Below are positions 6,001 to 11,487 of a stretch of DNA of 11,487 nt, piece after piece (the stretch's first letter is position 1; each line of letters opens with the position of its first letter). This DNA is from a virus (lineage: Duplodnaviria > Heunggongvirae > Uroviricota > Caudoviricetes). The position numbers are program-made. The DNA is taken from the IMG/VR virus record IMGVR_UViG_2563367000_000012, positions 1-11,487 of that record, one strand, 5' to 3'.

Positions 6001-9000
6001 AGCCGGACTCTCACGTCCGGTGTGGATAGCGCAGGCGTATCAGCAGCAGATAGCGGAGAGTCGCAGGCCGGAAGAGGAGACAACACCACGTGAGACGTAA
6101 TCTTTCACACATTATTGCAGCAGCATTCAATGAACCGCTGCTTCTGGAGCCCGCCTATGCGCGGGTTTTCTTTTGCGCGCTCGGGCGCGAGATGGGGGCA
6201 GCAAGTCTTTCGGTACCGCAACAGCAGGTACAGCTTGATGCTCCCGGGATGCTGGCTGAAACGGACGAGTACATGGCCGGAGGTAAACGACCGGCCCGTG
6301 TTTACCGGGTGGTGAACGGTATTGCGGTACTGCCGGTGACCGGCACGCTGGTGCACCGGCTGGGGGGGATGCGGCCATTTTCCGGAATGACTGGCTATGA
6401 CGGCATTGTCGCCTGTCTTCAGCAGGCAATGGCAGATAGCCAGGTGCGGGGCATACTGCTGGACATTGACAGTCCGGGCGGGCAGGCCGCCGGCGCGTTT
6501 GACTGCGCTGACATGATTTACCGCCTCCGGCAGCAGAAGCCGGTCTGGGCACTGTGCAATGACACGGCCTGTTCTGCAGCCATGCTGCTGGCGTCGGCCT
6601 GCTCCCGACGGCTGGTTACCCAGACATCCCGTATCGGCTCCATTGGCGTGATGATGAGCCATGTCAGCTATGCCGGTCATCTGGCGCAGGCCGGTGTGGA
6701 TATCACGCTGATTTATGCCGGGGCGCACAAGGTGGATGGCAATCAGTTTGAAGCGTTGCCGGCAGAGGTTCGCCAGGACATGCAGCAGCGGATTGATGCG
6801 GCGCGCCGGATGTTTGCCGAAAAAGTGGCGATGTATACCGGTCTGTCTGTTGATGCCGTCACGGGAACAGAGGCTGCCGTTTTTGAAGGTCAGTCCGGCA
6901 TTGAGGCCGGGCTGGCGGATGAATTAATCAATGCGTCGGATGCCATCAGTGTGATGGCCACGGCGCTGAACAGTAATGTCAGAGGAGGCACTATGCCGCA
7001 ATTAACTGCAACGGAAGCCGCCGTGCAGGAGAACCAGCGAGTGATGGGGATCCTGACATGCCAGGAAGCGAAAGGACGTGAACAGCTTGCCACGATGCTG
7101 GCAGGGCAACAGGGCATGAGCGTTGAACAGGCCCGGGCGATTCTGGCCGCGGCGGCACCGCAGCAGCCGGTGGCATCCGCACAGAGTGAAGCCGATCGCA
7201 TTATGGCGTGTGAAGAAGCGAACGGTCGTGAACAACTGGCAGCAACGCTGGCGGCGATGCCGGAGAGGACGGTGGAAAAAGCCCGCCCGATCCTGGCTGC
7301 TTCACCGCAGGCGAATGCCGGGCCCTCACTTCGTGATCAGATCATGGCACTGGATGAGGCAAAAGGGGCTGAGGCGCAGGCTGAACAGCTGGCTGCCTGC
7401 CCGGGAATGACTGTGGAGAGCGCCCGGGCTGTGCTGGCTGCGGGATCAGGTAAGGCAGAACCGGTCTCTGCATCCACAACCGCCCTGTTTGAACATTTCA
7501 TGGCGAACCATTCACCGGCTGCGGTCCAGGGGGGCGTGTCACAGGCGTCAGAAGACGGTGATGCGGACGTGAAAATGCTCATGGCCATGCCATGAAGTCA
7601 GTGCTGAACATCAATACGAGGTTTTAACAATATGGTGACGAAAACCATCACTGAACAGCGTGCGGAAGTACGTATTTTTGCCGGTAATGATCCGGCTCAC
7701 ACCGCCACAGGCAGCAGCGGGATTTCCTCGGCAACACCGGCACTGACACCCCTGATGCTGGATGGGGCCACCGGGAAACTGGTGGTCTGGGACGGACAGA
7801 AAGCCGGTAGTGCGGTTGGCATACTGGTACTGCCGCTTGAAGGCACAGAGGCGGTGCTGACGTATTACAAGTCGGGGACCTTTGCGACGGAGGCAATCCG
7901 CTGGCCTGAAAGTGTGGATGAACACAAAAAGGCCAACGCCTTTACCGGCAGTGCCCTGAGTCACGCGGCGCTGCCGTAACACGTTATCAGGCCACCGCGT
8001 TGGCCTGACTGATTTCTTAATGAAAGGAACTGATTTATGGGATTGTTTACGACCCGCCAGTTACTCGGTTATGAGACGACAATAACTCAGTCCGCCTGGC
8101 GCCGATTATTCTGGCCGGTTTTGTAACCTGAGTGTCATTTACATGATCCAACAGGAAATGGCGTGACGCTCAATACTTCTCAGGTCAGTTACTATATGAC
8201 TCAGCGTAAGAAAGGTATAACTCAGCATATCTCGGCCATGAAGGCTGGTATCTCAGTCCGTTCTGGTCGTCGGATCGAAAAAGGAGAGTGGGCAAAAAAC
8301 AGTGTTCGGCACTGGCGCACACGCAAAGATCCTCTGGAAGCTGTGTGGGACAGCATGCTTGTTCCTCTGTTGAAAGAGAGGCCGGCTCTGACACCAACAA
8401 CTCTGCTGGAGATGCTACAGGATAAATATCCCGGCCAGTACCCCAACAGCCTTCGAAGAACAATGCAACGGCGGGTCCGCGAATGGAAGCTACAGTATGG
8501 TGCAGAGCAGGAGGTCATGTTCCGCCAGCGACATCAGCCCGGTCTGCGAGGTCTGTCGGACTTTACTGAACTGAAAGGTGTAGTTGTCACCATCGCCGGT
8601 AAGTTGTTGGCGCATAAGTTGTATCACTTCCGTCTGGAATGGAGCCACTGGAGCTGGATGCGGGTTGTGCTGGGTGGTGAGAGCTTCTCTGCTCTGGCTG
8701 AAGGTCTGCAGGAAGCCCTCGGACAACTGGGCGGAGTGCCGGTAGAACATAAAACGGACAGCCTGAGGGCAGCATGGAAACAACAGGGCGAAGATGGACG
8801 CCGCGAGCTGACTGAGCGTTATGCTGCTCTCTGTCAGCACTACGGAATGCAGGGCGTACACAATAATGCCGGTCGGGGCCACGAAAATGGCTCGGTTGAA
8901 AGTGCCCACGGACATCTGAAAAGGCGTATCTGTCAGGCGCTGATACTGCGGGGCAGTAACGACTTCAGCACCATAGAAGAATATCAGGCCTTCATCACTC

Positions 9001-11487
9001 AGCAGGTTATGCGGCACAACCGTAACAATCAGGATCTGGTCAAGGAAGAACGTCTTCATCTGAAACCGCTGCCGCTTCGTCGCAGTGCTGACTATGATGA
9101 GCTGACTGTGAGGGTTAGCCGCAGCAGTACCATCAATGTGAAGCACGTCGTCTACAGCGTACCTTCCCGGCTTGTAGGTCAACTGTTACGGGTCCGGTTA
9201 TGGGACGATCGTCTGAGCTGTTACGTTGGCAGCAGCGAGGTCATGAGCTGCCCACGTGTCAGACCAGAAAAAGGGAAGACGCGGGCCCGTCGTATCGACT
9301 TCCGACATGTGATCGACAGTCTGGCAAAAAAGCCCGGTGCGTTCTGCCATGCAACGCTGAGAAATGACATCCTGCCAGACGATGAATGGCGGAGGCTGTG
9401 GCGTCGCTTATGTAATCATCTGGAACCCGACATGGCAGGCAGGCTGATGGTACATGCTCTGAAACTGGCTGCAGGATACGACGATATCTCAGTCGTGGCA
9501 AAAGGTATGGAGCAGATGCTGAATACCCCGGGAAACGTGGATCTGCACCGGCTGATGCGCTTCCTGGGTATAAAGGAAAAGGCGTTGCCGGTAGTCAATG
9601 TGAAACAGCATAACCTGAGCAGTTATGAGCAACTACTGCGTGGCAAGGGAGGTTCGCAGTGAGCAATATCCATCACCTTGAACGCAGCCTGCGTAAACTA
9701 CGCCTGACACGAGTTGGAGCTGAATGGCACGCTCTGGAAAAACGAGCACTGGCAGAAGGCTGGACACCATCGCGCTATCTTCTGACGCTATGCAATGAAG
9801 AACTCCTGTGGCGCGAGAGTGAAAAACTGCGTCGTTATAAAAAGGAGGCCCGGTTGCCAGTTGCCAAAACGCTAAGCGAATACGACTTCAGTCAGGTGCC
9901 GGAACTGAATGGAGCTCAGTTCCGGCAACTCTGTGAAACGACAGACTGGGTTGATGCAGGAGAAAACGTTCTGCTGTTCGGAGCCAGCGGGTTGGGGAAA
10001 AGCCATCTGGCGGCAGCGATCGTGGATGGCGTAGTAGGCCAGGGCTACCGGGCCCGGTTCTACAGCGCAGGAGAGTTGTTGCAGGAACTACGTAAAGCCA
10101 GAGCGCAGTTGAAACTGAATGAGCTGCTACTGAAACTGGATCGCTACCGGGTGATAGTGGTGGATGATCTTGGCTATGTCAAACGCGACAGCGCCGAAAC
10201 GGGAGTACTGTTCGAGTTAATAGCGCATCGCTATGAACGTGGGAGCCTGGTGATAACCAGTAACCATCCGTTCAGCATGTGGGGCAGCATCTTCGTGGAT
10301 GAGACTATGGCGGTGGCGGCGGCAGACCGGCTGATCCATCACGGATATATGTTCGAACTGAAAGGTGAAAGCTACAGGAAAAAGACAGCGAAGGCAGTAA
10401 CAAGCGCGACTTGATGTCGCACTGAAGGGGGCGGCCAGTATAGTTGGCGCGAGTCGGCAAAACTAGTTGACGTCTAATAACGTCCTGTTGTGTTTCTGTG
10501 TCTTATATATTCACGATGAAAATATAAATCAGTGTTTTATATCTGTGATCTTAATTTCACAAATTAATATTACATTATTTATTTTGTTTTTACTTTTCAT
10601 GAAAAATATAACTTGTTTTTTGATTTGTATCTAAATTTTGTCATAAATCAATAACAGTCACTCATTCCATTTAACTTGATTATAACGATCTTTTATTCTG
10701 CATATGAATAATATTCCGGTCATATATTCTGATTGTATTCTTTTTTTGTGTTATATGATTCTGGTATTTTGTGATTTTGTAGATAAAAAGATCGTGCAAT
10801 GTATATTTTTAAGTAAGAAACACCATGATAGTATTTGTGCCGTTGACGCAGGGGGAGACAGGTATCCTGTTGAATCTGAAGTGAAAAGGTTTCATTCCCT
10901 GCATGTTATTCGTGTGTATGGAGTGAATCAGAGATGAGGGAGCGATATCTGTATCTTGCTGACACCCCTCAGGGGATACTGATGTCCGGTCAGGTGCCGG
11001 AATATCAGTTCTGGTTACTGGCTGAGATATCGCCGGTGCACAGTGAGAAGGTTATTAATGCGCTGAGGGATTATCTGGTAATGGGATATAACCGTATGGA
11101 GGCCTGCGGGCGTCATGGTGTGTCGCCGGGATATTTTTCTGGTGCACTGAAGCGGTTTCAGCGGGTCAGTCAGACGGTATACAGGCTGGTGCCTTTTTAT
11201 TTCCCGGAGGCGGGTCATGAAGTTCACAGGGGAGAGTGATGAAAGGGCGTGAGCGGGTTTAATAAGTGCGGTTGATATTATTACGCTAATTAAAGCTATT
11301 TCTGTTAAGCATTAAGCATTAAGCATTAAGCATTAAGCATTAAGCATTAAGCATTAAGCATTAAGCATTAAGCATTAAGCATTAAGCACTGAATATTAAC
11401 ATCAGTTTCACCATCCGTTTCGCCACCCGGCACGAATGCGGTGACTGCATGCAGTCCGGTCAGAGTCAGTTCCGGGTGGGGATGGTG

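What the first reader, a model, noticed from the sequence alone, without database searches (positions are those of the whole stretch)
8037..10480. Prophage structural operon is cut inside gene E by an IS21-family element with no target-site duplication
The gpE reading frame ends after about 11 codons, exactly where the IS left inverted repeat begins. Past the IS right end the sequence is not the remainder of E but AT-rich fimbrial regulatory DNA. No flanking direct repeat is seen. This argues for an IS-mediated deletion, inversion or cointegrate resolution that removed everything from E onward (capsid and tail genes) and joined the prophage to a fimbrial locus, rather than a simple insertion. 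The prophage is therefore very likely defective, yet its terminase, portal, protease and moron genes remain intact.
Basis: partly seen in the sequence, partly recalled or inferred. Interest (0 to 1): 0.55.

Follow-up and report, generated by a model that had tools for sequence, protein, structure and literature searches.

The report
Hybrid ISEc10 joining prophage to afa operon
A known mobile element (ISEc10) that normally sits in the control region of the E. coli Afa/Dr adhesin operon here has a prophage capsid gene on its other side, the usual mark of an IS-mediated rearrangement (or an assembly error through the repeat), which is an ordinary event.

Summary
An intact 2,410-bp ISEc10 (IS21 family) lies at 8070-10479. 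It cuts the lambdoid capsid gene E after 11 codons (ATG at 8037). Its flanks, CTCGGT on the left and ACGTCC on the right, are not a target-site duplication. Ten independent ISEc10 insertions elsewhere have identical ends, nine with a 6-bp duplication and one with 4 bp.

The right junction is not new. It is the published ISEc10 insertion in the afaF-afaA promoter hot spot, a simple insertion with ACGTCC on both sides in 16 complete genomes. The window's IS also carries that lineage's marker base (G at 10430).

So this is a hybrid IS copy: an inherited afa right end joined to a new left target in E. A direct precedent exists. In strain MS 21-1 the same afa copy recombined with a second ISEc10, giving cross-paired duplications and a ~200-kb inversion.

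In a genome holding both loci they are direct repeats about 1.5 Mb apart, so a viable deletion cannot make this junction. The rest of E most likely lies beside a second ISEc10 next to afaF.

An assembly chimera cannot be excluded: neither E junction occurs in 5,426 complete genomes.

The parts
1..8069 (+). Late-region segment of a lambdoid prophage that in relatives sits next to potB, ending inside gene E
   Evidence: One mismatch (position 6508) over 8,069 bp to MCJCHV-1; the same bit score in more than 50 complete genomes, including 'EcST1193 MDBZ1340' and MS10858. In MS10858 the prophage abuts potB.
602..928 (+). TonB C-terminal-domain protein gene (phage moron)
   Evidence: Annotated 'TonB family protein' at the matching position of L003. 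TIGR01352 tonB_Cterm 46.9 bits against a cut-off of 27.1.
1873..2421 (+). Terminase small subunit gene
   Evidence: ORF; annotation of the matching MCJCHV-1 locus.
2393..4321 (+). Terminase large subunit gene
   Evidence: ORF 2351-4321; annotated start mapped from L003 17393.
4305..4511 (+). Head-tail joining protein gene (gpW-like)
   Evidence: PF02831.
4508..6100 (+). Portal protein gene, intact
   Evidence: It serves as the uninterrupted reference for the HSP60 ISEc10 insertion.
6090..7595 (+). S49 head protease/scaffold gene (gpC-like)
   Evidence: Pfam Peptidase_S49 3e-35. It carries the single private SNP, at 6508.
7632..7979 (+). Head decoration protein gene D
   Evidence: Pfam HDPD 6.2e-24.
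8037..8069 (+). Stump of major capsid gene E: 11 native codons. The frame then runs on into the IS, giving a 29-aa ORF at 8037-8126.
   Evidence: Intact E follows D in all 10 contexts read for the identical D protein.
8064..8069 (.). CTCGGT, the target hexamer at the new left junction; its twin is expected at the right end of a second ISEc10 copy
   Evidence: the cross-pairing logic is shown in MS 21-1.
8070..10479 (+). ISEc10 (IS21 family), 2,410 bp, intact
   Evidence: 0 differences from the AREA_492 copy and 1-2 from nine other copies. Ends defined by ten independent sites.
8070..8119 (+). Left terminal inverted repeat region
   Evidence: 34 of 50 positions match the reverse complement of the right end; repeat I1.
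8163..9662 (+). istA, transposase, 499 aa, intact
   Evidence: NF033546 227 bits. Lacks the 4-bp deletion at 9434-9437 that frameshifts most afa-resident copies.
9659..10414 (+). istB, helper AAA+ ATPase, 251 aa; its GTG start overlaps the istA stop (GTGA)
   Evidence: Pfam IstB_IS21 9.5e-62; NF038214 266.7 bits; sequence read.
10430..10430 (.). G allele marking the afa-resident ISEc10 lineage
   Evidence: G in the window and in four afa-resident copies (L002, L006, L010, L024); T in nine non-afa copies. Both MS 21-1 copies also carry T.
10430..10479 (+). Right terminal inverted repeat region
10480..10485 (.). ACGTCC, the right-hand copy of the duplication made by the old insertion into the afa promoter region; its twin lies next to afaF in relatives
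   Evidence: L002, L006, L010 and L024 have ACGTCC on both sides; the uninterrupted L012 has one copy.
10480..10933 (+). afaA-proximal 454 bp of the afaF-afaA regulatory region, with GATC sites at 10687 and 10790
   Evidence: hot spot described in PMC8764528.
10934..11239 (+). afaA, PapB-family regulator of the Afa/Dr operon
   Evidence: Pfam PapB 4e-36; RefSeq annotation of matching afaA loci.
11305..11388 (.). (TTAAGCA)12 microsatellite between afaA and afaB/draB
   Evidence: TRF: 12.0 copies, 100% matches. 4-13 copies in eight other loci.

Best explanation
Positions 8070-10479 are an intact ISEc10 that is a hybrid copy.

Its right end and right flank are the inherited insertion into the afaF-afaA promoter hot spot of an Afa/Dr adhesin island. 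Its left end is joined to a new target, between codons 11 and 12 of capsid gene E of a potB-type lambdoid prophage.

Such a copy arises in one of two ways. Either two ISEc10 copies recombine (one in the afa promoter, one inserted in E). Or one IS21-type transposition or replicon-fusion event links the afa-resident element to a target in E. Both routes give the same sequence.

The genome should therefore hold a second hybrid copy reading afaF...ACGTCC-ISEc10-CTCGGT-TATACCGAAC... (the rest of E and the tail genes).

Shown: the hybrid nature of this copy, the ancestry of its right junction, and the same process at the same IS copy in another strain.

Inferred: that the junction is physically real in one genome, and that a second copy exists.

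Not determinable from 11.5 kb: the large-scale outcome. It could be an inversion, relocation of the prophage or of the afa module between direct IS copies, or a large tandem duplication.
For: - The ISEc10 ends and the 6-bp duplication rule come from ten independent sites. The window has CTCGGT against ACGTCC.
- The afa-side junction is a simple insertion (ACGTCC on both sides) in L002, L006, L010 and L024. The uninterrupted L012 has one ACGTCC.
- 17 complete genomes carry the IS-afaA junction and 17 carry the afaF-IS junction.
- The window's IS has G at 10430, as the four afa-resident copies examined do; nine other copies have T.
- Precedent in MS 21-1. The afaF-IS junction lies at 4.757 Mb on the minus strand and the IS-afaA junction at 4.555 Mb on the plus strand. 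The flanks are ATGATG|IS|ACGTCC and ACGTCC|IS|ATGATG. That is an inversion of about 200 kb between two ISEc10 copies, one of them this same afa copy.
- ISEc10 is active. De novo insertions near lpp were selected in CFT073 (PMC7482066).
- It repeatedly lands in lambdoid prophage genes: portal in HSP60 and essD in CMZE120 by locus inspection, tail genes by hit-table annotation.
Against: - The reciprocal copy cannot be looked for because only 11.5 kb is available.
- Neither E junction (E'|IS or IS|'E) occurs in 5,426 complete E. coli genomes, the plasmid and phage collections, GTDB species representatives or JGI metagenome contigs.
- The two halves have their best matches in different strains. 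The phage half matches ST1193-type genomes. The afa half is 100% identical to FDAARGOS_536, whose own potB prophage is only 94.9% identical to the window. None of the 60 best prophage matches is among the 17 afa-ISEc10 genomes.
- In the one examined genome with afa-ISEc10 and a potB prophage, the loci are in direct orientation. A plain inversion would therefore need a different or already flipped island.
Confidence: 0.6

Rival explanations
1. Assembly chimera. The source sample holds two simple insertions, E::ISEc10 and afaF-ISEc10-afaA, in one genome or in two co-occurring E. coli strains. The assembler entered the 2.4-kb repeat from E and left it towards afaA.
For: - The IS is a multi-copy repeat whose copies differ at 0-2 positions, apart from the 4-bp deletion in most afa-resident copies.
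- The two flanks match different lineages best, and no complete genome has both at this identity.
- The junction is unique among all collections searched.
- The window is short (11,487 bp) and may be a whole small contig (inference).
Against: - It still needs a private ISEc10 insertion in E at this site, so it saves no events.
- Assemblers usually break at such repeats rather than thread them (general knowledge).
- A real recombinant of this same afa copy exists in a finished genome, MS 21-1.
Confidence: 0.27
2. One reading: the genome has a single IS copy, and an IS-mediated adjacent deletion removed everything between the rest of E and afaF. This could be intramolecular transposition of the afa-resident IS left end into E, or recombination between two direct copies.
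For: A hybrid copy without a duplication is what such a deletion leaves. A contig that runs straight through the IS is most easily assembled from short reads if the IS is single-copy (inference).
Against: - In FDAARGOS_536 (afa-ISEc10 island at pheU, prophage at potB) both loci are on the plus strand, with E at 649,779 and afaA at 4,102,631 of 4,977,723 bp.
- SK1144 shows the same orientation, with both matches on one strand.
- The segment that must be lost to give E'-IS-afaA is the ~3.45-Mb arc from E onward round to afaF (my arithmetic from those coordinates). It contains oriC (K-12 map, my knowledge).
- The viable deletion product would instead read afaF-IS-'E.
- This rival works only if, in the source, the prophage lies close upstream of the island in the same orientation. 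That was not seen in any genome examined.
Confidence: 0.1
3. Simple insertion of ISEc10 into E, with misjudged IS ends or an atypical event that made no duplication.
For: None beyond the position of the left end inside E.
Against: The sequence right of the IS is not E. It is 100% identical to the afa promoter region and carries that insertion's own ACGTCC half-site. Ten sites fix the IS ends to the base.
Confidence: 0.01

Closest known systems
ISEc10 insertion in the afa/dr promoter hot spot (ST131 strain S103EC, afaE-XIII; Alvarez-Fraga et al., mBio 2022, PMC8764528)
   Same: Same element, same orientation, same insertion point and same right junction. S103EC (CP076693.1) is one of the 17 genomes with this junction. 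The paper places the island at pheU and reports that the IS did not change the afaA transcript level.
   Different: There the IS is a simple insertion, with afaF on its left. Here the left flank is prophage gene E. The paper gives the element as 2,530 bp and the site as 440 bp upstream of afaA. Here the element measures 2,410 bp and lies 454 bp upstream.
ISEc10-ISEc10 inversion in E. coli MS 21-1 (CP146670.1), found here
   Same: The same afa-resident IS copy has exchanged its left flank with another copy. Neither copy has a matching duplication, and the half-sites pair across the copies: ATGATG|IS|ACGTCC and ACGTCC|IS|ATGATG.
   Different: The partner site is in another island about 200 kb away, not in a prophage. 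Both hybrid copies are visible there, so the inversion is proven. Both MS 21-1 copies have T at the position equivalent to 10430, whereas the window keeps G.
IS21 replicon fusion (cointegrate formation from tandem IS21, as in plasmid R68.45; Reimmann and Haas; recalled from the literature, not read here)
   Same: Same IS family: an istA/istB pair, inverted-repeat ends and short target duplications. The family is known for fusing replicons, so that the inserted DNA ends up flanked by direct IS copies with hybrid flanks.
   Different: No tandem IS junction or second copy is visible in the window. Whether ISEc10 uses this pathway was not tested.
Translocation of the afa-3 cluster via flanking IS1 (Garcia, Labigne and Le Bouguenec 1994; reference 33 in PMC8764528)
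   Same: An afa operon moved as an IS-flanked module.
   Different: A different IS family (IS1). Known to me only from the title; not read here.
Simple ISEc10 insertions in lambdoid prophage genes (HSP60 portal, CMZE120 essD)
   Same: The same element disrupts head or lysis genes of related prophages.
   Different: Those have both halves of the gene and a 6-bp duplication: GGCGGC and TACGTC.

Membership tests
IS21 family insertion sequence | istA encoding an IS21-type DDE transposase | tested here: met
   NF033546 transpos_IS21: 227 bits, cut-off 160, over residues 12-304. Pfam found only the Mu-transpos_C_2 domain.
IS21 family insertion sequence | istB encoding the AAA+ helper ATPase, immediately downstream of and coupled to istA | tested here: met
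   PF01695 9.5e-62; NF038214 266.7 bits, cut-off 200. The istB GTG at 9659 overlaps the istA TGA at 9660-9662.
IS21 family insertion sequence | Terminal inverted repeats | tested here: met
   34 of 50 terminal positions are complementary; repeat I1.
IS21 family insertion sequence | Termini 5'-TG...CA-3' (typical of the family, from memory) | tested here: not met
   The ends conserved at ten sites are 5'-TATGAG...CTAATA-3'; TG is at bases 3-4 of the left end only. This is a usual trait recalled from memory rather than a strict criterion, so it does not exclude membership.
IS21 family insertion sequence | Short target-site duplication on insertion (4-8 bp in the family, from memory) | tested here: met
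   For ISEc10 as an element: 6 bp at nine independent sites and 4 bp at one. The window's own copy lacks it, which is the finding.
ISEc10 (named element) | Near-identity over the full length to copies annotated as ISEc10 | tested here: met
   0-2 differences over 2,410 bp to ten full-length copies annotated 'IS21-like element ISEc10 family'. Three afa-resident copies differ additionally by a 4-bp deletion.
Recombinant (hybrid) IS copy left by an IS-mediated rearrangement | No matching duplication at the two flanks of an otherwise complete element | tested here: met
   CTCGGT against ACGTCC.
Recombinant (hybrid) IS copy left by an IS-mediated rearrangement | At least one flank traceable to a different, simple insertion whose other half-site lies elsewhere | tested here: met
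   ACGTCC plus afaA is the right half of the afaF-afaA insertion seen with both halves in L002, L006, L010 and L024.
Recombinant (hybrid) IS copy left by an IS-mediated rearrangement | A reciprocal hybrid copy (afaF-ACGTCC|IS|CTCGGT-rest of E) in the same genome | not testable with these tools
   The source genome is not available. That junction is absent from all collections searched. The equivalent test was met in MS 21-1.
Afa/Dr adhesin operon, regulatory end | PapB-family regulator afaA preceded by the AT-rich afaF-afaA intergenic region | tested here: met
   PF03333 4e-36. 100% identity to loci annotated afaA, followed by draB, afaC, draD, draP and the Dr adhesin gene. GC 0.30.
Lambda-like major capsid gene E | Reading frame continuous with a Phage_cap_E protein | tested here: not met
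   Only 11 codons remain. In relatives the same start leads to a 342-aa PF03864 protein.

The most novel reading that the evidence does not exclude
The junction may be one end of an IS21-type replicon fusion that moved a whole excised, defective lambdoid prophage into the afa island. Equally, it could have moved an IS-flanked afa module into the prophage. Either way the Afa/Dr adhesin operon would lie directly downstream of the phage late operon. Q-antiterminated late transcription on induction could then read through ISEc10 into afaA-E, or the adhesin operon could travel with phage DNA.
Probability: 0.08. Interest if true: 0.45.

Novelty: new member of a known kind. Interest (0 to 1): 0.2.

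Why it matters
The finding matters mainly for annotation and assembly quality. Hybrid IS copies without a duplication mark breakpoints of chromosome rearrangements or mis-joins.

The afa promoter ISEc10 is now seen taking part in such events in two cases: MS 21-1, where it is proven, and this window, where it is likely. Because this copy sits in the control region of a clinically relevant adhesin operon, rearrangements there separate afaF from afaA-E and change what lies upstream of the afa promoter.

It does not reveal a new mechanism or a new kind of element.

Tried and rejected
- Finding the source genome or either E junction. I used megablast of the junction against 5,426 complete E. coli genomes, plasmids and phages. 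I also ran exact-pattern scans of GTDB representatives and JGI metagenome contigs for both the observed and the predicted reciprocal junction, and a synthetic reciprocal-junction query. All found nothing.
- Exact look-up of the 29-aa E'-IS fusion ORF and of a 34-aa antisense ORF across the junction. Neither is in the protein collection.
- Context look-ups by exact protein. afaA gave islands with no IS, with ISEc10, or with an IS66-type element. gpD gave only intact D-E contexts. Neither returned the window's arrangement; only the 24 blocks with the longest contigs are read.
- Using SNPs inside the IS to map a crossover. Only one informative site exists (10430), plus the 4-bp indel at 9434-9437. 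If the ancestor was FDAARGOS_536-like, the exchange lies between 9438 and 10430. AREA_492 has an intact afa-resident copy identical to the window's, so no crossover is required. Rejected as inconclusive.
- Simple insertion with other IS limits or a shorter duplication: rejected.
- Inversion as the default outcome: not adopted, because the two loci are direct repeats in FDAARGOS_536 and SK1144.
- The promoter and terminator scan across the region gave nothing that bears on the question.
- Literature searches on the IS21 mechanism and on afa in ST1193 gave nothing usable.

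
Full report
**What is in the window**

Positions 1-8069 are the late region of a lambdoid prophage. It contains:
- the end of a lysis gene and a TonB-domain moron;
- the small and large terminase genes, W, portal, the S49 protease, and head decoration gene D;
- the first 33 nt of the major capsid gene E.

This stretch differs at one base (6508) from the prophage of MCJCHV-1. 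It scores identically against more than 50 complete genomes, among them 'EcST1193 MDBZ1340' and MS10858. That MCJCHV-1 and MS10858 are ST1193 is my own knowledge. In MS10858 the prophage abuts potB-potA-pepT.

Positions 8070-10479 are an insertion sequence with istA (8163-9662) and istB (9659-10414). Positions 10480-11487 are AT-rich DNA followed by a PapB-family gene (10934-11239) and a heptamer microsatellite.

**Identity and exact limits of the IS**

Megablast names the element ISEc10, IS21 family. IstA and IstB pass the NCBIfam IS21 models.

I fixed the ends empirically:
- In HSP60 the element interrupts the portal gene. The window's intact portal gene shows that the element is exactly TATGAGACG...CGTCTAATA, flanked by a duplicated GGCGGC.
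- Eight further copies from chromosomes and plasmids, plus the afa-resident copy, give the same 2,410-bp element. Nine of the ten independent sites have a perfect 6-bp duplication and one has a 4-bp duplication.
- The window's copy has CTCGGT on the left and ACGTCC on the right, with no match of any length.

E starts at 8037, keeps 11 native codons, and the IS starts at 8070. The twelfth codon, TAT, is restored by chance by the first three bases of the IS.

**The right junction is old and already published**

In AREA_492, FDAARGOS_536 and two further assemblies, the same IS sits between afaF (annotated daaF) and afaA with ACGTCC on both sides. An uninterrupted island has a single ACGTCC at that point.

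Seventeen complete genomes carry the IS-afaA junction, and seventeen carry the afaF-IS junction. One of them is S103EC. Alvarez-Fraga et al. (PMC8764528) described this ISEc10 insertion as part of an IS hot spot about 440 bp upstream of afaA, in a pheU island, with no effect on the afaA transcript level.

The window's IS also has G at 10430, as do the four afa-resident copies examined. Nine copies elsewhere have T. The right 50 bp or more of the element and everything to its right are therefore the inherited afa insertion. Only the left junction is new.

**Hence a hybrid copy**

A complete element with one inherited flank and one foreign flank, and no duplication, is what an event involving two IS copies leaves. 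It is equally what is left when one IS acts on a second target in a single step. The two routes give identical sequence, so they cannot be told apart here.

A direct precedent turned up in MS 21-1. There the afaF-IS junction lies at 4.757 Mb on the minus strand, while the IS-afaA junction lies at 4.555 Mb on the plus strand. The flanks read ATGATG|IS|ACGTCC and ACGTCC|IS|ATGATG. The half-sites pair across the two copies, which proves a roughly 200-kb inversion between two ISEc10 elements. The other 16 genomes have the simple insertion.

By analogy, the window's genome should contain afaF...ACGTCC-ISEc10-CTCGGTTATACCGAAC..., that is, the rest of E and the tail genes.

ISEc10 is an active element: new insertions near lpp were selected in CFT073 (PMC7482066). 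It also often lands in lambdoid prophage genes.

**What large-scale change it represents**

This cannot be read from 11.5 kb, but the geometry constrains it.
- In FDAARGOS_536 the afa flank is 100% identical to the window, including the 12 heptamer repeats. The island is at pheU and a prophage sits at potB. E (649,779) and afaA (4,102,631) are both on the plus strand of a 4,977,723-bp chromosome.
- SK1144 carries the same island without the IS and a related prophage. It shows the same relative orientation, with the two matches on one strand about 1.58 Mb apart.
- With that layout, an IS in E oriented as in the window and the afa IS are direct repeats.
- Recombination between them would then split the chromosome. 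E'-IS-afaA would lie on a 1.52-Mb circle without oriC. The arc lengths are my arithmetic from the coordinates above; the positions of oriC and of essential genes are my knowledge of the K-12 map.
- A real E'-IS-afaA junction therefore implies one of three things. The island may be in another site or orientation, or already flipped as in MS 21-1, which would give an inversion. The excised defective prophage, or an IS-flanked afa module, may have been relocated between direct IS copies. Or the ~1.5-Mb arc may be tandemly duplicated.
- afa islands do occur next to a differently flanked tRNA-Phe, probably pheV (L008).

**Artefact**

I could not exclude a mis-join through the repeat.
- Neither the observed left junction nor the predicted reciprocal junction occurs in any collection searched.
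- The two halves of the window match different strains best. FDAARGOS_536's own potB prophage is only 94.9% identical to the window.
- None of the 60 best prophage matches is an afa-ISEc10 genome.

On the other side, a chimera still requires a private ISEc10 insertion in E. A genuine recombinant of the same IS copy also exists in a finished genome.

My estimates are:
- real two-copy rearrangement: about 0.6;
- chimera: about 0.27;
- single-copy deletion: about 0.1.

**Prophage status**

The head genes in the window are as intact as in relatives. E is destroyed at this locus.

The matching prophage already has frameshifted K (C40 peptidase), J and tail-fibre genes in MS10858. MCJCHV-1 has the K and J frameshifts; its tail-fibre gene was only partly in view. 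It was probably defective before the IS event.

**Verdict**

This is an IS-mediated join and not a simple insertion. It is not shown to be a deletion, and half of the join is an old, published insertion.

This is an ordinary instance of a well-known process, and its main value is as a breakpoint or assembly flag. Interest is 0.2.

Noticed in passing
window 11305-11388: A perfect (TTAAGCA)12 heptamer microsatellite lies between afaA and the chaperone gene. The copy number is 4, 7, 8, 11, 12, 13, 13 and 13 in eight other afa loci with otherwise near-identical flanks. It is hypervariable, and its unit is not a multiple of three. A role in expression of the downstream genes is conceivable but untested.
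   Followed up: partly
window 9434-9437 (GGCA within GGCAGGCAGGC): Fourteen of the 17 afa-resident ISEc10 copies in complete genomes are about 4 bp shorter. In the three copies examined, this is a GGCA deletion that frameshifts istA (annotated as a pseudogene in FDAARGOS_536). The window, AREA_492, MS 21-1 and CEA106S have the full-length form.
   Followed up: partly
L035 6001-8410 and L036 8401-10810 (E. coli MS 21-1, CP146670.1): A roughly 200-kb chromosomal inversion between two ISEc10 copies separates afaF from afaA-E. The target half-sites are cross-paired (ATGATG and ACGTCC). Both copies carry T at the position equivalent to 10430 and C at 9650, so they appear homogenised.
   Followed up: yes
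window 10687-10690 and 10790-10793: Two GATC sites 103 bp apart lie upstream of afaA. They resemble the paired Dam sites of pap-type phase-variation switches (a resemblance from memory). Both lie on the afaA side of the IS, so they stay with the operon. A third GATC is at 10547.
   Followed up: no
L003 31003-36358; L037 8459-16629: The prophage matching the window has frameshifted tail genes. K (C40 peptidase) and J are frameshifted in two independent complete genomes, MCJCHV-1 and MS10858. The tail-fibre gene is frameshifted in MS10858; it was cut off in the MCJCHV-1 view.
   Followed up: partly
window 602-928: A phage-borne gene encodes a TonB C-terminal-domain protein, lying between the lysis genes and the terminase genes (a moron). 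It passes TIGR01352.
   Followed up: no
L001 12005-14414; L028 601-3010; hits H31, H36, H38: ISEc10 recurrently interrupts lambdoid prophage genes in other strains. By locus inspection: the portal gene in HSP60 and essD in CMZE120. By hit-table annotation only: a tail protein gene in MS 21-1, a tail tube gene in N96 and J in 06-00048.
   Followed up: partly
window 6508: This is the single base (C) that differs from the MCJCHV-1 prophage (T) over the 8,069-bp phage part. It lies in the S49 protease gene.
   Followed up: no
L004, L005, L007, L009, L011 (about 6790-9405 in each): Other afa islands carry an IS66-type element (ISCro1 according to PMC8764528) in the same afaF-afaA interval. This fits the published IS hot spot.
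   Followed up: no
window 10704-10937: A 77-aa ORF just upstream of afaA, overlapping it by 4 nt, has no Pfam match and lies in the AT-rich regulatory region. It is probably not a gene.
   Followed up: no
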